Part shown: piece by piece, positions 23,440 through 49,524 of the stretch | Layout of the letters: each line of letters starts with the position of its first letter | Position numbering within the stretch: the stretch's first letter is position 1 | Sequence record: PP627281.1 | Reading direction: 5' to 3' (one strand) | DNA: 57,280 nt | DNA from: Escherichia phage KS_W4 | Notes under the pieces: model-generated | What the model saw: the letters and a program-made list of their open reading frames with translations, nothing else | Databases searched by the model: none | Told to the model about the DNA's origin: nothing | Position numbers and translations under genes: made by a program

Positions 23440-25425
23440 TTAGGCATATCCCATGTCTTCGAGATACTTCTCTGCTTTAGCTATATAAGCATCATAATCT
23501 ATGTCGTCCGGTATTTTATCCGGTAGCGTCATGATTGGGACACCTCCCGCGCTACCAGCTACACGGTTGCCCGAGTTAGCATAGATTATTTCGGGAGTTT
23601 CTTCATTGGTGCTTAAATACCAGCGTACAACCTTACCCAAAAATTCGCCATTCCATACCGCGCCACCTTTCACCGCACGTAGGATAATGAATTTTCTAAT
23701 ATCGTTGCAATTGCGTATAGTACGAGAAACAGGCGTACCGTGGGCCAAACATTCACATACAGCTTCCATAATAATTTCACCAGTACAGTTCTTTTGAAGC
23801 CCTGTTTTCGCGAACCAGCCTTTACGTTTAATTTCAACATTTCCTTCCTCATCAGGTTCTTTTACTGCAACATAGTTATTGACGTTAGCACTGTACAGCT
23901 TGTCATAGTAGTTGGATTCCATTTCAAAGCCTGTCACAGACTCCCACCACTTGATCATGTCATCAACGAAGTCCTGCATGTGGTCAGGATACTTAACCAC
24001 AATACCATCCGTGTTAGCTGAAATTACTTTAACACCGTTCAGCTCAAACGCTTCAATGAGCATTAACAGCGATAGCTGTCCGGTGATAGTTACCTGTATC
24101 AATAATTGCGGCGCGTACAATACAGACCACATTGAACCCAATTTACCGAACGATCCGTTGATTACGATCTTCAGCGTATTGGCTGTGTTCTTGTCCCCTG
24201 AGTGCTTGGCCGCAATACGACGGTCTACAATGCTTTTATAAACACGAAGAAACGCTGGTCCCAACTGCTCAGGGTATAAGCCCTGATTAAGAATAATTGA
24301 AGGGTAATAGGACGTTACGTCAATGTCCCGCTTCTTAATACCTGGCTCTTTACCGTGACCAGCACACTCTTCGGAGCTATGCAAACCGCCAATACCCATA
24401 CGGTAGACACCGTCCGCAATCTTGATCTCAAGACCTGTTAACGCTGGAGGCAAGCTAACGCCACCGTTATCGCTAACAACAAAACGGCAGTCCCGAACAA
24501 TATCCAAAACACTATTCATCAGAGGTGTTTGAAAACGAATAAAGTCCGGTATGTTATATGCATACTTAGTTCCAGGATAAACTTGGGGACGCTGGGGGCG
24601 CACACCAGTTAACGCTTGAATTTCGTGTTTAATTACGTCTTCGGCAATCTGCGCATCAGAACGTGAACGCAGATCCACACCGTATTCTTGCGACATAATT
24701 TCACGAAGGTGCAAAGGCTCTTGCAATGCAATAAAACATTCTTCCGTCTGTACAAGGTCGTTAATACAGTACCAGCGTACAATTAACATCTGGTCCTGCG
24801 TCAACATTGTATTTGGCTTAAATGGTAAATCCTGCATACGGCGAGTATGTACACGTCCGCCATATTGTTTCAAACCACCAGATCCAGGCAGAACTTCCAT
24901 AATATCAATGTGGTTAACGTTCTGCATACGCTTAAGGCGGTAACTCTTCAACACATCGGAAGGACGCCAATCTTCCACGATTATCTTATCGGTTGCGTCT
25001 TTAAGCTGCGCATTAGAACAGCCGTTAAGCGCAAGCGTAGCAATGGGCATATCGTACCCGTTACCGTTAAAGCTTACGATAAGGAAGTTTGTCATTACCC
25101 AGTTAAGTAACAAGCAATTTAAACTACAACCGTGATACATTTCGAAGTAGACAACTTTCTTAGTTCGCACTCCGCGAAATGCAATTAAGAAATAGTTTGG
25201 ATAACATTCAATATCGTACACAAGCGGTTCGCGGTTAATCCATGCTTGAATAAGTTCGTCCTGCGTATACAGGTTGTATTGGAAGTTCCGCGCTTCTTCA
25301 AGGTTAGGCAGATAATCCGGGCGCTCCCAAGTGCGCTCCGGCGGTAAACGTTTAACCTTTTCTTTCTTTGCTTTTGGCTCAGGCGGTAAGTCCTGCCAAA
25401 AGAAACCAATAGCATCTGTCCGCAT
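23440..25425 (-). CDS. DNA polymerase, family B
   Basis: 661 aa from ATG 25425; exonuclease motifs YDIECY and FNGNGYD; polymerase motifs DVTSYYPSII (A), KIVINGSFGK (B), NTDG (C). Confidence 0.8.
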   Translation of the reverse strand: MRTDAIGFFWQDLPPEPKAKKEKVKRLPPERTWERPDYLPNLEEARNFQYNLYTQDELIQAWINREPLVYDIECYPNYFLIAFRGVRTKKVVYFEMYHGCSLNCLLLNWVMTNFLIVSFNGNGYDMPIATLALNGCSNAQLKDATDKIIVEDWRPSDVLKSYRLKRMQNVNHIDIMEVLPGSGGLKQYGGRVHTRRMQDLPFKPNTMLTQDQMLIVRWYCINDLVQTEECFIALQEPLHLREIMSQEYGVDLRSRSDAQIAEDVIKHEIQALTGVRPQRPQVYPGTKYAYNIPDFIRFQTPLMNSVLDIVRDCRFVVSDNGGVSLPPALTGLEIKIADGVYRMGIGGLHSSEECAGHGKEPGIKKRDIDVTSYYPSIILNQGLYPEQLGPAFLRVYKSIVDRRIAAKHSGDKNTANTLKIVINGSFGKLGSMWSVLYAPQLLIQVTITGQLSLLMLIEAFELNGVKVISANTDGIVVKYPDHMQDFVDDMIKWWESVTGFEMESNYYDKLYSANVNNYVAVKEPDEEGNVEIKRKGWFAKTGLQKNCTGEIIMEAVCECLAHGTPVSRTIRNCNDIRKFIILRAVKGGAVWNGEFLGKVVRWYLSTNEETPEIIYANSGNRVAGSAGGVPIMTLPDKIPDDIDYDAYIAKAEKYLEDMGYA

Positions 25426-26378
25426 TAGACACGTTCTCCAATTAATACACCGCGAAGATTTTCCCCAAAGAATGCGCAAGGTTGCGGATACAAACTAAAG
25501 TCCGCAGTCTTAACCACATTTTCAAGCAATAGCAGGATATCAATATTGTACACTCCCGTAATTGTCCGGTCCTGCAATACGAAGCTTGCACCTTCTGCAT
25601 CGTCGTAATGAGTACGGGCTAGACCGTTTTCAATATATACGCGAGGACGGTCTTCTGCAAACGGTTTAATTTTATGCAAGCCCTCAAATAGACCTGGATC
25701 AACAGGATGCGCATTGCATTGAACATTTAAAATACGACGTATATCTGGCCACTCCGCATCAATAAGCTGTGTCCGCAACCAGCGACCTTCCGGATAATGA
25801 AACGTCACATTGTTCTTGCTAACCTGAATATGTGTAGGGTTAGCTTTAATGCGCAATATTTCTTTGATAGCAACAGACGGTATTATGCAGTCTATAGGGA
25901 ACTGATTGCCAAACCAGTATTCCGCAATAGTCACGTTATTTGTAGCAAACAGGCTACCGTTATTAATCAGGATACCGCAAGCCCACGGACGGGAAGCATC
26001 GGAGCCTACAAACGGAGCAACGGACTTCACACCATGTACGAAGCGAGCACCGTCTATTTCATACAGATCCCCTTCAGGGGATACATGCGGAGTTTCTTTA
26101 TCGATGCAGCGTATAGCAACACGAAACGGGCCTGACTTGATATTCAGCTTACCGTTAGCCATCATTGTTAGCTGCACTGTTTCATCACAGTTTGAAATAG
26201 CTTTAATCATTGGACCAGCTTCAGGCTTGCAATCAATATCCAGCTCAATGGGGCTGCCCAGTGCAATAACACCGTTAAAGCCTTGTACCTGCCCGTCACG
26301 AATAAGAAAACTGGTAAGCCCTTCTACCAGTTCCTTTTTAGCGACGGAGCCTTGAACAAATTTAAGAGCGTCTAACAT
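25425..26378 (-). CDS. sliding clamp-like protein (beta-clamp fold, putative)
   Basis: 317 aa; three-part repeat architecture and sequence pattern reminiscent of DnaN-type clamps; translationally coupled to the polymerase gene. By-eye inference only. Confidence 0.4.
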   Translation of the reverse strand: MLDALKFVQGSVAKKELVEGLTSFLIRDGQVQGFNGVIALGSPIELDIDCKPEAGPMIKAISNCDETVQLTMMANGKLNIKSGPFRVAIRCIDKETPHVSPEGDLYEIDGARFVHGVKSVAPFVGSDASRPWACGILINNGSLFATNNVTIAEYWFGNQFPIDCIIPSVAIKEILRIKANPTHIQVSKNNVTFHYPEGRWLRTQLIDAEWPDIRRILNVQCNAHPVDPGLFEGLHKIKPFAEDRPRVYIENGLARTHYDDAEGASFVLQDRTITGVYNIDILLLLENVVKTADFSLYPQPCAFFGENLRGVLIGERV

Positions 26379-26605
26379 TAGCGATCCTCGATTGCTCTAA
26401 TTGTGGTTAAATCTAATTCACAGGTTGGAGGGTATCCATAAAGTCCCATTTGTTTTCCTTGTGCATTAAACCATGTGCCTGACGGATCCTGCCACTGCTT
26501 AGGTGTCTTGTGGAGAAATACTACTCTGTTTTCACCGTAATAATTAATTCTTACGCCTGTGTGAGTATATTTACGTTTACCTTTTGGTCTTCTTAAGTTA
26601 GCCAT
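26378..26605 (-). CDS. hypothetical protein
   Basis: 75-aa ORF coupled between the DpdA and clamp-like genes. Confidence 0.4.
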   Translation of the reverse strand: MANLRRPKGKRKYTHTGVRINYYGENRVVFLHKTPKQWQDPSGTWFNAQGKQMGLYGYPPTCELDLTTIRAIEDR

Positions 26606-27525
26606 CAGAACAACTCCATTACACGATCACGGAATGTGCCGTCATGGGTGGCGTTAATGTTTGCAGCAATTACACCATACGCCCATAAGTTGAAAGCAGC
26701 ACGTGATTCATAGATTGTTGACAAACGTTCGTAAGTGAAACCGTTTTGCTCAAGGTATTTAAGGACAGCGTCTTGTTCAATTTCAGTTAATGTTGAAACA
26801 TGCTTACCAAAATGATGGCGGTCCGGTGACTTATCTGATACGCGCATTGGTCCCCACGGAGGAGTAACTACACTTCCAAACGCTGCCGCTTGAATCCAGG
26901 AGGATGAGTCACAGCTATACCACGGGTAACGTTCCATAATGGTAGTGGACGTAATACCAAATGCATGAAGCTTAATCTTAGGACGACCGCTACCATCGCA
27001 AATATATTTGTCCCACATACGATCAAGCCAAGTTTTAAGTGTGTCCGTTGAACGCCCTACCATGCCACCAATCGTGATATATTCGTAGTTCTTCATGTAA
27101 TATTCAAGATAGCGGAAGTCTTCACCGAAGTGAAAGCAGGGTAACGGTTTGGCGCCTCGTGCTTCCATTTCAAGCTGGTTACGGTATGTCTGCAACGGAT
27201 CACCGATGCCATCGAGCACCGACGCCATTACTGCACCATCTTCTACGCGAAGGATGTCTTTGTTGCGCTTAATGTATTCGCAGTATTCAACAATATCAAT
27301 GTGAGCACCCAAAGAGTGCGCGGAGAATGCACCGGAGTCGAGAAACACTTTAGCCCCGTCCGCACGCATTTGATCAACATACTTCTGACGCCCAACGTAG
27401 TGGTACGATTCCAAAATATGGGGCAGGTTGCGAGTGATATTTTTCTCATGCTCGGATAGCTTTTCGTAACGCTGCTGTCCAGGCATATATCCGTTCGTGT
27501 AAACTGCTGCCATAAAAACGTTCAT
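26605..27525 (-). CDS. dpdA: DpdA-like DNA-guanine transglycosylase (TGT family)
   Basis: 306 aa; GGAGGA RBS; FLDSGAF motif and TGT-like length; adjacent to the preQ0 synthesis genes. Confidence 0.65.
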   Translation of the reverse strand: MNVFMAAVYTNGYMPGQQRYEKLSEHEKNITRNLPHILESYHYVGRQKYVDQMRADGAKVFLDSGAFSAHSLGAHIDIVEYCEYIKRNKDILRVEDGAVMASVLDGIGDPLQTYRNQLEMEARGAKPLPCFHFGEDFRYLEYYMKNYEYITIGGMVGRSTDTLKTWLDRMWDKYICDGSGRPKIKLHAFGITSTTIMERYPWYSCDSSSWIQAAAFGSVVTPPWGPMRVSDKSPDRHHFGKHVSTLTEIEQDAVLKYLEQNGFTYERLSTIYESRAAFNLWAYGVIAANINATHDGTFRDRVMELF

Positions 27526-32246: not shown

Positions 32247-32276
32247 TGAAAAAGAAAGCGCCTCATTGGGCGCTTT
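32247..32276 (-). terminator. rho-independent terminator
   Basis: AAAGCGCC-CAATGA-GGCGCTTT followed by CTTTTTC on the minus strand. Confidence 0.65.
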
Positions 32277-32301
32277 CATTATAACGTGATATGTTTTGAT
32301 A

Positions 32302-33114
32302 TTACAAGCCGTTCAGGGCTTCCGGTACTGGTACAGGTACGCGACCAGTCACACCATTAAATTTCTTCCAGCGTGCATACTGGGTTTTAACGGTATCTTC
32401 GTTCAGCCCATGGCGACCGGCCAGATTCAGAACATAAGAGATCGGAGCAGGTTGGCCCAGCGTAGCGCTAATCTGGTCCATCAGAGCCCAAGCACGACCG
32501 CAGGAAGTTTCCGGTTGCGGACGGCGAACACCGTTCTGTTCCGGCATACGATTAGCTTCTTTTTCTTTCTCGCGGAGTTCTTTAGCGCGTGCTTTTTCCG
32601 CTTCTTTTTCTGCCTGTTTTGCAGCACGGATCTTGTCTTTGAAGCCTTTAATAGTAGCTTCCAGACCATCCACCAGACCCTGGGCAGAAGTTACAGCACC
32701 GGACAGGTCTTCACCTTTAGACTTCTTAACGACAGCTTTCAGCTCTTTCAGAGCTTCTTTAATGGTCTTCAGGTTTGCAGATCCCTGAGTTTCTGCTTCC
32801 GTGATCTGTTCAACAGTGCTTTCGTCGGTGACGGTAGCCAAAGAGTTTTTCAGGATTTCAGCAGCGTTAGCAATCGCATTAAATTTGTTTTCCGCTTCAG
32901 TGCGGATTTCAGCTTGTTTCTTTTCAGCGGCAGCTTTTTTCTCTGCTTCTTTTTTCTCTTTTGCTACGCGTGCAGCTTCAGCAGCAGCGGCTTTCTTAGC
33001 TTCTGCATCATTCACAGTAGCTTCTTTCTTTGCAGGTTTAGCAGATTTTGCAGCGGCAGCAGCGGCAGCAGCGGCAGCGGCTTTTTTATCTTCAATGTTG
33101 CTCATTCTCTTCAC
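32302..33114 (-). CDS. Ala/Lys/Glu-rich protein with conserved C-terminal domain
   Basis: 270 aa; poly-Ala tract encoded by GCN repeats at 33050-33082; C-terminal about 45 aa shared with the ORF at 48588-49202. Confidence 0.5.
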   Translation of the reverse strand: MKRMSNIEDKKAAAAAAAAAAAKSAKPAKKEATVNDAEAKKAAAAEAARVAKEKKEAEKKAAAEKKQAEIRTEAENKFNAIANAAEILKNSLATVTDESTVEQITEAETQGSANLKTIKEALKELKAVVKKSKGEDLSGAVTSAQGLVDGLEATIKGFKDKIRAAKQAEKEAEKARAKELREKEKEANRMPEQNGVRRPQPETSCGRAWALMDQISATLGQPAPISYVLNLAGRHGLNEDTVKTQYARWKKFNGVTGRVPVPVPEALNGL

Positions 33115-33232
33115 TCCGAATTGTTATGGGTTCGTTTGTTACCAACGGGGTTAAATGTACCAAAGGATTTTGTGACACGCAACCCCTTATCTGAATATTT
33201 TTAAAAATATTTTTGATCAAGCTTAGAACTTA

Positions 33233-33727
33233 CTAACTCTTTGCCCCTCTGCCCGGTGTCCATGCGGCTTGCAATGCGGGTTGCTCACAAACGACCCTGG
33301 CACCGGAAATAATACCACCCTCCCGTTCAGCATCGTATTTGACACGGGCAGGTTTCCAAAGTCCTTCATCCATTGACGGAACGTATTGCCCAATTTGAGG
33401 TGAGCAAAAGCCTTGGATATCGTATTCCACACAGAATTCGGCTTGTGCGCTGATTTGGGCGTGATCCAGGATTGTTTCTGGAAGTTGCGTAAAGTAATCA
33501 AACAAAATGCGCTCAACGATTTCCCGTTCATAAGGTGCAGCTCCTAAGTTTTCTGTCAAGTTAATATAAAGCATTTGAAGATCAACATCTTCAAGATCAT
33601 GTAAATCGTCTACTGGTGTCACCAGTGTTGACTCAGGGCAACAAATAATTCCAAGTTGGTGTAGTGTCAGCCAATTGGGATGCTTTGCCAAGAGTTCAAA
33701 TTTATCTGTATCAATCAGGACGTACAT
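33233..33727 (-). CDS. hypothetical protein
   Basis: 164-aa acidic ORF. Confidence 0.4.
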   Translation of the reverse strand: MYVLIDTDKFELLAKHPNWLTLHQLGIICCPESTLVTPVDDLHDLEDVDLQMLYINLTENLGAAPYEREIVERILFDYFTQLPETILDHAQISAQAEFCVEYDIQGFCSPQIGQYVPSMDEGLWKPARVKYDAEREGGIISGARVVCEQPALQAAWTPGRGAKS

Positions 33728-48587: not shown

Positions 48588-49202
48588 TTATGCGTCCAGT
48601 CCGTTGTATTTGCGCCAGGCGTAGAACTGAATGGCTACCGTTGTCCCGTTGTAAGAAGGCATTGCAGCTTTCATCTCTTTCAGCTCCGGCGTGCGGCCCA
48701 GTTCGGCCAAAAGTTTGTCGCCCATTGCCCACACTTCGGCAGTTTTTCCTTTCAGGGGCTTGCGAGCGCCATTTTTGAAATCACAGCGAGCAGCTTTTAC
48801 ATCCTGTTTTGGCGCGGCAGCTTTTGGCTCTTCAATTTTGATTTCAGAAACCTGCGTGGCAGCTTTTGCGTGTTTCATATCTTTCTCTTCCTCCTGCTCC
48901 AGAGCTTCGAGGCAGCTTTTGACGATTTCCGGATTTACCATCGGGCGCAGTACCGAGGCGCTAGCAGCTGGCGCGGCGGTCGGTGCCGGGACTTTCTGCT
49001 CCGGCTTTTGAGCTTTTTCGTGCTCGCGCAGCACCTGAAGGACTTCCTTTTCAACAATGTAAAAACCAATATCGTCCTGATGGATTAACTGTTCATGTGC
49101 GTCGCGTGCAACCTGACCCCAGCGAGTTTTCAGAGCGCGGCGTGCATTCGTTTTCATGGTGTAGCGCATTTTGTCCTGTTCGCGGTGAGTTACTTTAGAC
49201 AT
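48588..49202 (-). CDS. hypothetical protein, paralog of the 32302-33114 product (shared C-terminal domain)
   Basis: about 204 aa from ATG 49202 (AAAGGAG RBS); C-terminus VWAMGDKLLAELG...TVAIQFYAWRKYNG aligns with the C-terminus of the A/K-rich protein. Confidence 0.5.
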   Translation of the reverse strand: MSKVTHREQDKMRYTMKTNARRALKTRWGQVARDAHEQLIHQDDIGFYIVEKEVLQVLREHEKAQKPEQKVPAPTAAPAASASVLRPMVNPEIVKSCLEALEQEEEKDMKHAKAATQVSEIKIEEPKAAAPKQDVKAARCDFKNGARKPLKGKTAEVWAMGDKLLAELGRTPELKEMKAAMPSYNGTTVAIQFYAWRKYNGLDA

Positions 49203-49232
49203 GGTATAGCTCCTTTCGTTAAAGTTAGTTTG

Positions 49233-49262
49233 CTTATTATTGCCCACCGTGATAGTAGGCAA
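49233..49262 (-). promoter_or_regulatory. putative minus-strand promoter (TTGCCT ... GGGCAATAATAAG)
   Basis: Minus-strand TTGCCTA-N14-GGGCAATAATAAG just upstream of the gene starting at 49202; same motif repeated at 49553-49585. Confidence 0.35.
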
Positions 49263-49275
49263 TGTATAAGAAAAC

Positions 49276-49524
49276 TTACTGGACGATAGCAACGAAATCC
49301 GCGTTTGCGATGTCCATGCTTGCGAAAGCAACGATGCTATAGTCTGTGTCGTTTTCGGCGTTAAACGCTTTGAGGAACTGCTGTACCGCTGCTTTATGGT
49401 TAAGCGTTACGTCGATAGCATAGTCCCAGCTATAGACTTTGCGCTTGCCAAAACCTTTAACTGCAATGCGTGCGCCTTTGGTGTTAGTTGGTGCCAAAAA
49501 TTTAGTGATGATAGAAGTAGCCAT
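49276..49524 (-). CDS. hypothetical protein
   Basis: 82-aa ORF with GAGGA RBS downstream of a promoter-like motif. Confidence 0.45.
   Translation of the reverse strand: MATSIITKFLAPTNTKGARIAVKGFGKRKVYSWDYAIDVTLNHKAAVQQFLKAFNAENDTDYSIVAFASMDIANADFVAIVQ

What the first reader, a model, noticed from the sequence alone, without database searches (positions are those of the whole stretch)
32302..33114. Ala/Lys-rich protein with GCN trinucleotide repeat and a C-terminal domain shared with a second gene
The 270-aa protein has an 11-residue poly-Ala tract encoded by (GCN)11 at 33050-33082, a slippage-prone repeat. Its C-terminus (...AWALMDQISATLGQPAPISYVLNLAGRHGLNEDTVKTQYARWKKFNG) is homologous to the C-terminus of the 48588-49202 product (...VWAMGDKLLAELGRTPELKEMKAAMPSYNGTTVAIQFYAWRKYNG). 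The highly charged low-complexity N-termini suggest nucleic-acid-binding or nucleoid-associated proteins. The antisense ORFs in this region (32296-33204, 32801-33154) are probably low-complexity artifacts.
Basis: seen in the sequence. Interest (0 to 1): 0.45.

Follow-up and report, generated by a model that had tools for sequence, protein, structure and literature searches.

The report
Phage helix-plus-winged-helix protein, polymorphic poly-alanine
This is a real but functionally unstudied gene of a Seurat-type E. coli phage: an alanine/lysine-rich helical protein ending in a small, very conserved, probably DNA-binding domain that a second gene of the phage also carries, and that occurs in the same phages as the genes that put 7-deazaguanine into phage DNA.

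Summary
The gene is on the minus strand. Its likely start is ATG 33105 (267 aa), not GTG 33114.

- **Window:** a Seuratvirus (Queuovirinae) genome.
- **Gene:** equals CPT_Seurat44 and the CAjan gene mislabelled 'FtrA domain'.
- **Poly-Ala:** 10, 11, 15 or 16 residues among sequenced relatives, always in frame. This is slippage polymorphism, not a switch.
- **Shared domain:** the C-terminal ~75 aa are homologous to the end of the 48588-49202 product (BLASTP E=1e-6; a profile built without that gene gives E=1.8e-7).
- **Family:** about 2,190 protein clusters carry the domain. It has no Pfam family and no studied member found.
- **Fold:** it models confidently as a three-helix winged-helix-like fold with seven near-invariant basic positions.
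- **Context:** the gene sits between the helicase and queE in 78 of 78 related viral contigs. Its phage distribution matches that of DpdA rather than the much wider one of the helicase.
- **Limit:** published work shows 9g DpdA modifies DNA without it.
- **Antisense ORFs:** artefacts.

Most likely it is a non-virion, nucleic-acid-binding accessory protein of the replication/deazaguanine module. Its function is unproven.

The parts
32302..33105 (-). Coding sequence of the 267-aa protein ('p1'; equals CPT_Seurat44 and CAjan AJT60531), stop codon included
   Evidence: ORF. Annotated as 804 nt in Seurat and CAjan. phrog_11298 at E=3e-112. 69% of substitutions fall on third codon positions.
33114..33117 (-). 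GGAG ribosome-binding site, 8 nt upstream of ATG 33105.
   Evidence: Sequence read. An RBS is annotated at the same place in Seurat.
33049..33081 (-). (GCN)11 tract encoding Ala9-Ala19. Its length is polymorphic among Seuratviruses.
   Evidence: Variants of 10, 11, 15 and 16 Ala plus one interrupted tract.
32908..33105 (-). N-terminal Ala/Lys/Glu-rich segment (residues 1-66), under strong purifying selection despite low complexity
   Evidence: Composition and net charge +5. 10-11 synonymous against 1-2 nonsynonymous changed codons versus Seurat, CAjan and a slur01-like phage. Helices 4-19 and from residue 32 in the model.
32557..32907 (-). Central helical region (residues 67-183). With the helix that starts at residue 32, it forms three long helices. 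It is the fastest-evolving part of the gene.
   Evidence: AlphaFold model: helices 32-90, 98-128 and 135-184, pLDDT mostly above 90. Only generic three-helix-bundle matches in the PDB, none with E<=0.001. 30-32 synonymous against 32-42 nonsynonymous changed codons.
32320..32556 (-). Conserved C-terminal domain (residues 184-262): beta-hairpin plus three helices, winged-helix-like
32254..32277 (-). Intrinsic-terminator-like hairpin (9-bp stem, 6 G-C pairs, T-run) directly after the gene and before queE
   Evidence: Terminators are annotated at the same place in Seurat and SA80RD.
33106..33232 (-). 127-bp spacer upstream of the gene, holding an AT-rich palindrome (33194-33214) and a hairpin (33147-33186). 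A promoter or regulatory role is not shown.
   Evidence: fold z = -2.15; palindrome unique in the window. SA80RD annotators called the hairpin a terminator.
33233..33727 (-). Upstream neighbour (164 aa): the N-terminal domain of phrog_7864. In other phages this protein carries its own copy of the C-terminal domain or is fused to a p1-like protein.
   Evidence: phrog_7864 positions 1-163 of 242. Domain copies at the ends of the neighbours in L015, L016, L019, L020 and L123. Six single ORFs in which this N-terminal domain continues into the Ala/Lys/Glu stretch and the domain: P0089, P0200, P0204, P0208, P0251, P0257.
48588..49202 (-). Second gene ('p2', 204 aa, phrog_22313) carrying a divergent copy of the domain at its C-terminus
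48597..48794 (-). Domain copy in p2 (about residues 137-202)
   Evidence: BLASTP alignment of residues 137-202. Profile match E=1.8e-7.

Best explanation
The gene encodes a conserved, non-virion accessory protein of the replication/DNA-modification gene block of Seurat-type siphoviruses.

Shown:
- It is a real protein-coding gene on the minus strand.
- It is followed immediately by a terminator-like hairpin.
- It has four parts: (i) an Ala/Lys/Glu-rich N-terminal helix that includes a length-polymorphic poly-Ala tract; (ii) a long charged helix; (iii) a fast-evolving helical bundle; (iv) a strongly constrained ~75-aa C-terminal domain of beta-hairpin plus three helices.
- The C-terminal domain is a mobile module. 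A second gene of this phage has it. In other phages 2-3 genes carry it, or it occurs 2-3 times in one polypeptide.
- The family occurs in the same phages as a DpdA/preQ0 (7-deazaguanine) cassette, and nearly always lies between the helicase and queE.

Inferred:
- The C-terminal domain binds nucleic acid, most likely phage DNA, through its conserved basic hairpin and third helix in the manner of a winged helix.
- The helical N-terminal part acts as a spacer and/or oligomerisation arm that makes binding multivalent. In some relatives this is achieved instead by tandem copies of the domain.
- The protein acts on DNA during replication and modification rather than as an enzyme.
- The poly-Ala tract is a slippage-generated, in-frame length polymorphism within the N-terminal helix, with no switching role.
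For: - **Real gene:**
- **Not reported in virions:** the main text of the Vid5 proteomics paper does not name the homologue gp42 among the virion proteins it lists (PMC6266253).
- **Architecture:** full-length model with mean pLDDT 87.6; domain model with pLDDT 89.4.
- **Basic surface:** in 255 distinct domain copies, K/R frequency is 94% at R195, 81% at position 197, 91% at K240, 81% at R245, 99% at K247, 91% at K248 and 92% at R255. Only one acidic position is conserved, D210.
- **Constraint:** the domain is the most conserved segment in every comparison, 58-99% identity against 29-97% for the rest. It shows 17-18 synonymous against 1 nonsynonymous changed codons within the genus.
- **Multivalency:** tandem copies in P0121, P0176, P0122, P0123, P0131, P0202 and P0256. 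Paralogues occur within one phage.
- **Arm composition:** the 60 aa before the domain are A 34%, K 24%, E 16%, with 6.7% large hydrophobics and median net charge +4. The same domain + Ala/Lys/Glu-helix pairing recurs in reversed order in Salmonella phage birk gp40.
- **Module membership:** the order helicase - (phrog_7864) - this gene - QueE-QueC-QueD-FolE-DpdA-clamp-PolA holds in 78 of 78 IMG/VR loci that have downstream sequence. It also holds in Rhizobium, Stenotrophomonas, Achromobacter and Microcystis phages.
- **Distribution:** record counts per host-genus word are nearly identical for this protein and DpdA. The helicase is in 614 records.
- **Natural absences:** 7 of 8 helicase-module phages without Que/DpdA lack the domain near the helicase.
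Against: - No member of the family has been tested. No Pfam, NCBIfam or PDB sequence match exists.
- The hairpin lies N-terminal to the helices, unlike the canonical C-terminal wing.
- The N-terminal helices contain nearly as much Glu as Lys. They are therefore not a histone-H1-like polycationic tail.
- The link to DpdA may be shared ancestry of one cassette rather than function. The positive lineages are related and the negative sample is only 8 genomes.
- Salmonella phage birk has a divergent copy of the domain without a Que/DpdA cassette.
- Phage 9g DpdA alone, or with Gat-QueC, modifies plasmid DNA in E. coli to 9-18% of G (PMC6884629).
Confidence: 0.5

Rival explanations
1. The C-terminal domain is a protein-protein docking module, like RPA32C or the cullin WHB winged helices. 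It would bring several phage proteins with different N-terminal parts (phrog_7864 N-domain, Ala/Lys/Glu helix, p2 N-terminus) to one conserved hub of the phage replisome or of the host: helicase, clamp, polymerase, DpdA or RNA polymerase.
For: - Several proteins of one phage share the domain behind different N-termini.
- Domain conservation (49-68% identity across hosts) is in the same range as the neighbouring enzymes: DpdA 57-74%, helicase 45-61%, PolA 41-65%. That would fit a partner that co-evolves slowly.
Against: - Seven near-invariant basic positions sit on the hairpin and third helix, with only one conserved acid. That is the usual signature of nucleic-acid contact.
- No partner has been identified.
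- Tandem triplication of the domain (P0121, P0176) is more typical of DNA-binding modules.
Confidence: 0.2
2. It is a sequence-specific transcription regulator, as the GenBank labels 'transcriptional activator' and 'FtrA domain' imply. It might, for example, control the que operon that starts just downstream, or middle/late genes in a phage that has no RNA polymerase of its own.
For: - The fold is wHTH-like.
- The gene lies directly upstream of queE, separated only by a terminator-like hairpin.
- I noticed no phage RNA polymerase gene in the parts of the window I annotated, so host polymerase presumably has to be redirected (inference; not systematically checked).
Against: - The FtrA/AraC label has no support: no AraC-type HTH or any other Pfam/NCBIfam match.
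- The domain is 50-68% identical across phages of gamma-, beta- and alpha-proteobacteria and cyanobacteria. This is unusual for a factor that reads phage-specific operators.
- The only palindrome near the gene is unique in the window, and no iterons were found.
- Paralogues and tandem copies are atypical for a dedicated activator.
Confidence: 0.15
3. It is an obligatory partner of DpdA for inserting 7-deazaguanine into DNA, a functional analogue of the bacterial DpdB.
For: - Near-perfect co-occurrence with the proteobacterial/cyanobacterial DpdA clade.
- The domain is absent near the helicase in 7 of 8 related phages that lack the cassette.
- In actinophages DpdA lies next to a ParB-like protein instead (annotation seen).
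Against: - Phage 9g DpdA expressed alone in E. coli puts dPreQ0 into plasmid DNA. With Gat-QueC it gives dG+ at 9-18% of G, without any protein of this family (PMC6884629).
- There is no ATPase or ParB-like domain.
- Phage birk has the domain without DpdA.
Confidence: 0.05
4. The ORF is a low-complexity artefact, or the true gene is the 302-aa antisense ORF on the plus strand.
For: Both strands have long open frames. Composition is biased: A 21%, K 14%, E 12%.
Against: - 389 of 563 substitutions fall on third positions of the minus-strand frame.
- The antisense frame is open only because the sense gene lacks TTA, CTA and TCA codons.
- The minus-strand product has homologues in thousands of clusters and folds confidently.
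Confidence: 0.01

Closest known systems
PHROG families 11298, 18634, 21588, 22313 and 7864 (all 'unknown function'); GenBank homologues CPT_Seurat44, CAjan AJT60531, Vid5 gp42
   Same: Direct sequence membership. phrog_11298 at E=3e-112 for the first protein and phrog_22313 at E=3e-141 for the second. Both also match phrog_21588. The domain links all five families.
   Different: Nothing differs. These are the same proteins, none studied. The GenBank names 'FtrA domain', 'plectin 1' and 'outer capsid protein' are not supported by any search here.
Winged-helix / three-helix HTH domains (RecX repeat, RPA32 C-terminal WH, MCM C-terminal WH, RecQ WH, Z-alpha, MarR/ArsR/PadR-type regulators)
   Different: - No sequence relationship is detectable.
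- The beta-hairpin precedes the helices instead of following them.
- A conserved tail (G-x-x-G-R-V..P) follows helix 3.
H-NS / MvaT / Lsr2-type nucleoid-associated proteins
   Same: The same logic of architecture: an N-terminal helical part that could oligomerise, plus a small basic C-terminal domain with a conserved loop (Q-N-G-V/I-R-R-P here) that could enter a groove.
   Different: - Oligomerisation is untested.
- The protein is phage-encoded and tied to one gene cassette.
KfrA of IncP plasmids (my own recollection, not checked with the tools): an alanine-rich protein with a small HTH-type DNA-binding domain and a long helical tail
   Same: An Ala-rich long helical region joined to a small helix-turn-helix-type domain.
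   Different: - Domain order is reversed: KfrA binds DNA with its N-terminus.
- No KfrA_N Pfam match.
- The context is plasmid partition, not a phage replication block.
Homing-endonuclease-associated repeat (Pfam PF18780, HNH_repeat)
   Same: A similar length and pattern: helix, 'LG+xP' turn, helix, then an aromatic-rich helix ending in G. Weak hits for p2 (E=0.043) and P0202 (E=0.008).
   Different: All hits are below the gathering score. Only 1 of 26 domain sequences hits at all. This is a lead only.
DpdB, the ParB-like ATPase partner of bacterial DpdA
   Same: Genomic association with a DpdA DNA transglycosylase.
   Different: No ParB or ATPase domain. Phage 9g DpdA works without it in E. 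coli (PMC6884629).

Membership tests
FtrA / AraC-type transcriptional activator (the GenBank label) | AraC-type HTH domain (and DJ-1/PfpI-like N-domain) detectable by profile | tested here: not met
   No such Pfam or NCBIfam match for either protein even at E<=1, nor for 26 domain sequences.
Phage protein family phrog_11298 and relatives sharing the ~75-aa C-terminal domain | Significant profile match over most of the protein | tested here: met
   phrog_11298 at E=3.1e-112, residues 16-267 against profile positions 1-260 of 273. 2,190 clusters match the domain profile at E<=1e-3.
Phage protein family phrog_11298 and relatives sharing the ~75-aa C-terminal domain | Position between the SF2 helicase and queE in a helicase...DpdA-clamp-PolA block | tested here: met
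   Window order. 78 of 78 IMG/VR loci that have downstream sequence.
Winged-helix / HTH fold | Three-helix core with helix-turn-helix geometry, superposable on known members | tested here: met
   [not shown]
Winged-helix / HTH fold | Beta-hairpin wing following the recognition helix | tested here: not met
   In the model the only hairpin (residues 189-194) precedes helix 1. After helix 3 there is an extended conserved tail.
Winged-helix / HTH fold | Binding of nucleic acid through helix 3 and the wing | not testable with these tools
   Indirect only: conserved K/R at positions 195, 197, 240, 245, 247, 248 and 255.
   [not shown]
   The monomer model shows long helices. No multimer prediction or experiment was available.
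Histone-H1-like / AlgP / PhaF-type Lys-Ala-Pro tails | Polycationic K/A/P repeats with few acidic residues | tested here: not met
   Whole protein: 12% Glu and 3% Asp. Residues 1-66 are net only +5. Family-wide, the 60 aa before the domain are K 24%, E 16%, P 1%.
Homing-endonuclease-associated repeat (PF18780) | Pfam match above the gathering score (26 bits) | tested here: not met
   14.6 bits for p2, 16.9 bits for P0202, none for p1.
DpdB-type partner of DpdA | ParB-like/ATPase domain, and a requirement for DNA transglycosylation | tested here: not met
   No such domain. Published result: 9g DpdA alone modifies plasmid DNA (PMC6884629).
Phase-variable (contingency) simple-sequence-repeat locus | Repeat-length changes switch expression by frameshift or promoter spacing | tested here: not met
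   The unit is a codon and the tract lies inside the reading frame. All natural variants are in frame: 10, 11, 15 and 16 Ala.
Virion structural protein ('outer capsid protein' and 'plectin' labels) | Detected in purified virions, or homologous to structural families | tested here: not met
   No structural PHROG or Pfam match. The main text of the Vid5 virion LC-MS/MS study does not name gp42. The gene lies in the replication block on the strand opposite to the structural genes.

The most novel reading that the evidence does not exclude
The domain family marks an unrecognised accessory component of phage 7-deazaguanine DNA modification. On this reading one to three winged-helix-like proteins travel with the DpdA/preQ0 cassette as a single insertable block between helicase and clamp. 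They would act on the modified DNA in one of several ways: coupling DpdA to replicating DNA, setting how much or where it modifies, reading or shielding modified DNA, or adapting DNA transactions to 7-deazaguanine. They would not be needed for base exchange itself.
Probability: 0.25. Interest if true: 0.7.

Novelty: new variant of a known kind. Interest (0 to 1): 0.42.

Why it matters
Phage 7-deazaguanine DNA modification is an active field (anti-restriction, anti-CRISPR, new defence nucleases that target modified G). Its gene clusters are described as DpdA plus preQ0-pathway and tailoring enzymes.

This work points to a large protein family, about 2,190 clusters at 50% identity. It has no Pfam model and I found no study of any member. 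In GenBank and IMG/VR it occurs in the same proteobacterial and cyanobacterial phages as DpdA, usually right next to queE and often in 2-3 paralogues. If the link is functional, it gives a concrete, testable candidate for how these phages handle or regulate modified DNA.

If the link is only shared ancestry, the result is still useful in three ways:
- It corrects misleading annotations ('FtrA domain', 'plectin', 'outer capsid protein').
- It defines a new domain boundary.
- It shows that the poly-Ala tract is harmless in-frame slippage rather than a switch.

Tried and rejected
- **Known-family searches.** Pfam, NCBIfam and PDB sequence searches of both proteins, of the domain profile and of the 164-aa neighbour gave nothing significant.
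- **Full-length fold search.** The full-length model against the PDB gave only generic three-helix-bundle, spectrin or BAG matches, none with E<=0.001. The BFVD search returned only uncharacterised members of the same family. The afdb50 library was unavailable.
- **p2 N-terminus.** I thought p2's N-terminus resembled the N-termini of the two-domain proteins P0131, P0202 and P0256. BLASTP and phmmer gave E>2, so I dropped the idea.
- **N-terminal 'TPEQ' motif.** It occurs in 88 of 221 homologues. I read it as a helix-capping box, not a binding motif. It is absent from the window protein.
- **Origin or iteron idea.** The direct repeats inside the gene are just low-complexity coding repeats.
- **Operator idea.** The AT-rich palindrome upstream is unique in the window.
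- **RNA element.** Rfam found nothing above threshold. The 5' hairpin folds only modestly better than shuffles, z = -2.15.
- **Bacterial homologues.** There were 8 hits in 185,579 species genomes. Most lie on contigs of about 55-57 kb or larger in metagenome bins, which look like phage contigs; two are short fragments.
- **Literature.** Searches on Seuratvirus/CAjan, FtrA, Queuovirinae transcriptomes, escape mutants, DpdA plus winged helix, and the BASEL phages Bas21-25 found no statement on this gene's function.
- **Obligatory DpdA cofactor.** Rejected on the published 9g experiment.
Full report
**Where the window comes from.** A 2.5-kb stretch around the finding is 97-98% identical to Escherichia phages PLYYY01, phiG7, CSP1 and several BASEL phages, and about 92% identical to Seurat and CAjan. 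All 34 matching records cover it fully. The window is therefore a Seuratvirus (Queuovirinae) genome. These are siphoviruses that replace part of their guanine with 7-deazaguanine derivatives (PMC6884629). The gene corresponds to CPT_Seurat44 ('hypothetical protein') and to CAjan AJT60531 ('transcriptional activator FtrA domain-containing protein'). Other records call it 'plectin 1' or 'outer capsid protein'.

**Checking the observation.** The minus-strand ORF 32302..33114 exists.
- The GTG at 33114 overlaps a GGAG at 33114-33117, which lies 8 nt upstream of ATG 33105.
- Most records annotate 804 nt, and relatives begin MSNIEDKK or MSTVEDKK. The protein is therefore most likely 267 aa.
Tandem Repeats Finder sees a perfect 9-nt unit x3.2.
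- The two C-termini align at 30% identity over 69 residues, E=1e-6, and both proteins match phrog_21588.
- To avoid circularity I built a profile from 25 homologues without the second gene. Among all six-frame ORFs of the window it finds the second gene at E=1.8e-7. Nothing else scores better than E about 1. The window holds exactly two copies of the domain.

**The antisense ORFs are artefacts.** The 302-aa plus-strand ORF is in codon register with the gene. The sense gene uses no TTA, CTA or TCA, so the antisense frame cannot contain a stop. Against five relatives, 389 of 563 substitutions fall on sense third positions.

**The poly-Ala tract.**
- A 241-nt probe across it matched all 34 relatives in one piece. 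26 records showed no net length change and 8 showed changes of -3, -4, -6 or +15 nt.
- I fetched six of those eight. In all six the tract itself differs in length: 10 Ala in WildeMaa, ECP2304, KS_A8 and Dru_SM1; 16 in Greed; 15 in KS_A3.
- KS_A3 (net -6 nt) also lacks a short stretch further downstream in the N-terminal region, so its net change is not from the tract alone.
- An IMG/VR relative has an interrupted tract, AEAAAAAAAA.
- The expansions duplicate a 15-nt block of the tract.
- More distant Seuratvirus-like proteins keep 7-11 Ala at this place. Relatives about 50% identical have none there.
Every variant is in frame and the tract lies inside the coding frame, so it is a length polymorphism, not a contingency switch.
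- The N-terminal 66 residues as a whole are under strong purifying selection: 10-11 synonymous against 1-2 nonsynonymous changed codons versus Seurat, CAjan and a slur01-like phage.

**Anatomy of the protein.** AlphaFold2 with a 93-sequence alignment gives mean pLDDT 87.6. The elements are a short helix 4-19 (which contains the poly-Ala), long helices 32-90, 98-128 and 135-184, a beta-hairpin around residues 189-194, and helices 201-216, 222-231 and 236-249.
- The long helices match only generic three-helix bundles in the PDB.
- The C-terminal 79 residues, modelled separately, reach pLDDT 89.4.
- This is fold-level resemblance. No sequence search links the domain to any Pfam, NCBIfam or PDB entry.
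- The hairpin lies before the helices rather than after them, so this is not a canonical winged helix.

**The family.**
- A profile of the domain finds 2,190 clusters (50% identity representatives) at E<=1e-3 and 1,030 at E<=1e-10.
- Typical members are 170-200 aa: about 100 residues rich in Ala/Lys/Glu, then the domain at the very C-terminus, with a median tail of 9 residues.
- The 60 residues before the domain are A 34%, K 24%, E 16%, with 6.7% large hydrophobic residues and median net charge +4. That composition suits a charged single helix or an Ala-rich coil better than a classical coiled coil or an H1-like tail.
- The enterobacterial versions, including this one, have an extra central helical region.
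- Seven of the 260 proteins collected carry two or three tandem copies of the domain.
- In 255 distinct copies, K/R is found at R195 (94%), position 197 (81%), K240 (91%), R245 (81%), K247 (99%), K248 (91%) and R255 (92%). N191, P196, W206 and W246 are near-invariant (98-100%), Y243 is 96% and G254 97%. D210 is the only conserved acid.
- The conserved basic residues sit on the hairpin and on helix 3. That is where wHTH proteins touch nucleic acid. This is my main reason for favouring nucleic-acid binding, and it is an inference.
- The domain is always the best-conserved part: 58-99% identity against 29-97% for the rest.
- Within the genus the central region takes nearly all the amino-acid change, with 32-42 nonsynonymous changed codons against 1-2 in each flank.

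**Genomic context.** In the window the minus-strand order is: DUF669, exonuclease, SF2 helicase, 164-aa ORF, this gene, terminator-like hairpin, QueE, QueC, a Vut-type transporter, QueD, FolE, a DpdA-like protein, a clamp-like protein, polymerase.
- The same order holds in 78 of 78 IMG/VR loci that have sequence downstream of the match, with queE starting directly after the gene.
- It also holds in two metagenomic phage contigs and in Stenotrophomonas, Achromobacter and Microcystis phages. Rhizobium phage RHEph05 has the same order, but several small ORFs lie between the gene and queE.
- The upstream neighbour belongs to phrog_7864. In the window it is only the N-terminal 164 residues of a 242-position profile.
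- In other phages that neighbour ends in its own copy of the domain. In six proteins the neighbour's N-terminal domain, the Ala/Lys/Glu stretch and the domain form a single ORF.
- Several phages thus carry two or three domain-bearing genes side by side. BcepGomr and Iggy show the same in BFVD.

**Is the family tied to replication or to the deazaguanine cassette?** tblastn against 50,697 phage records gives these counts.

| Query (call) | Total records | Esch. | Pseud. | Vibrio | Rhiz. | Enterobacteria | Provid. | Salm. | Klebs. | Stenotr. | Mycobact. |
|---|---|---|---|---|---|---|---|---|---|---|---|
| This protein (13) | 149 | 40 | 31 | 23 | 13 | 8 | 4 | 3 | 3 | 3 | not among the ten listed |
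| DpdA (103) | 224 | 40 | 31 | 23 | 14 | 8 | 4 | 3 | 3 | 3 | 56 |
| Helicase (92) | 614 | 60 | 98 | 52 | 19 | not listed | not listed | 51 | 19 | 24 | not listed |

- The helicase is also in 55 Xanthomonas records.
- I fetched eight helicase-module phages without Que/DpdA: Pseudomonas C1, Klebsiella Kmi2C, Stenotrophomonas Salva, Xanthomonas Pfeifenkraut, Sphingomonas Lucius, Vibrio 1.005.O, Alteromonas XX1924 and Salmonella birk.
- In seven of them the domain profile finds nothing within 8-9 kb of the helicase, and in several the helicase is followed almost directly by clamp and polymerase.
- Birk is the exception. Its gp40 has a divergent domain followed by an Ala/Lys/Glu tail, which is the same pairing in reverse order.
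- A metagenomic contig with a triple-domain protein has a DpdA-like gene (23% identity) but no preQ0 genes.
- Synechococcus phage Ssp-JY38 has the cassette and two domain genes, but they lie after the polymerase. Co-occurrence there survives a change of position.
- Bacillus phage Flasso, which has a distant DpdA, has no copy within 10 kb.
- Mycobacterium does not appear among the ten host-genus words listed for the tblastn hits of this protein, although 56 Mycobacterium phage records match DpdA.
- The family therefore follows one DpdA clade of proteobacterial and cyanobacterial siphoviruses, and the block [domain genes + queE...dpdA] behaves like one insertable unit between helicase and clamp.
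- Three caveats apply: the positive lineages are related, the negative sample is small, and record-level overlap could not be tabulated.

**What it is not.**
- It is not required for base exchange. Phage 9g DpdA alone puts dPreQ0 into plasmid DNA in E. coli, and with Gat-QueC it gives dG+ at 9-18% of G (PMC6884629).
- The main text of the Vid5 virion proteomics study does not name the homologue among the virion proteins it lists.
- It is essentially absent from bacterial genomes. There were 8 hits, most of them on large contigs in metagenome bins that look like phage.
- I found no paper that assigns it a function.

**Verdict.**
- **Best explanation (confidence 0.5):** a non-virion, nucleic-acid-binding accessory protein of the replication/deazaguanine block. 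A winged-helix-like basic domain is carried on a helical arm, and the poly-Ala tract is neutral in-frame slippage.
- **Rivals:** a protein-docking module (0.2), a sequence-specific regulator (0.15), an obligatory DpdA partner (0.05) and an artefact (0.01).
- **Novelty:** a new variant of a known kind. The fold class is familiar, but the family is undescribed and shows a distinctive association that I did not find reported.
- **Interest:** moderate, 0.42. The most novel reading still open is a dedicated accessory role in 7-deazaguanine DNA modification (probability about 0.25).

Noticed in passing
window 32557-32907 (codons 67-183 of the gene): Within the genus, amino-acid change is concentrated in the central helical region: 30-32 synonymous against 32-42 nonsynonymous changed codons. 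Each flank shows 10-18 synonymous against 1-2 nonsynonymous. This could be relaxed constraint, mosaic recombination, or diversifying pressure such as host sensors. It is not resolved.
   Followed up: partly
window 33233-33727 (-): The 164-aa upstream ORF is only the N-terminal domain of phrog_7864. In many other phages the same protein ends in its own copy of the winged-helix-like domain, or forms one ORF with the Ala/Lys/Glu stretch and the domain. The Seuratvirus version appears to have lost or split off that part.
   Followed up: partly
window 33106-33232 (-): The 127-bp spacer before the gene contains a perfect AT-rich palindrome (33194-33214, unique in the window) and a GGGGTT...AACCCC hairpin (33147-33186). 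One GenBank record annotates the hairpin as a terminator. Its RNA fold is only modestly better than shuffles (z = -2.15).
   Followed up: partly
window 23440-25479 (-) and 26605-27525 (-): The polymerase-like 679-aa ORF and the DpdA-like 306-aa ORF get no Pfam match at E<=0.001. Their homologues are annotated as DNA polymerase A and queuine tRNA-ribosyltransferase/DpdA in related phages. Both are too divergent for the standard profiles.
   Followed up: no
L118 10927-11454 (Salmonella phage birk gp40): A Rosemountvirus without Que/DpdA genes near its helicase has a divergent copy of the domain at the N-terminus, followed by an Ala/Lys/Glu-rich tail. This reverses the domain order seen in the window and is the one exception to the link with DpdA.
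   Followed up: partly
L101 2280-3170 (metagenomic contig, protein P0121): This protein consists of three tandem copies of the domain with no Ala/Lys/Glu helix. It lies between the helicase and a very divergent DpdA-like gene (23% identity), in a contig that lacks queE, queC, queD and folE.
   Followed up: partly
L124 13918-15165 (Synechococcus phage Ssp-JY38): Two adjacent domain-bearing genes lie after the polymerase instead of before queE. The family stays with the cassette-bearing genome even when its position changes.
   Followed up: no
H262 and related hits (Gordonia phage Sour, Mycobacterium phages): In actinophages the distant DpdA gene lies next to a 'ParB-like partition protein', reminiscent of bacterial DpdB. 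These phages show no tblastn hit to the domain studied here.
   Followed up: no
window 48588-49331 (-): The mechanical ORF for the second gene starts at a TTG (247 aa). Relatives annotate the ATG at 49202 (204 aa), and phrog_22313 matches residues 1-204 of 204. In CAjan, KS_S4 and probably WildeMaa the match stops at residue 202; in CAjan and KS_S4 an HNH homing endonuclease is annotated next to the gene.
   Followed up: no
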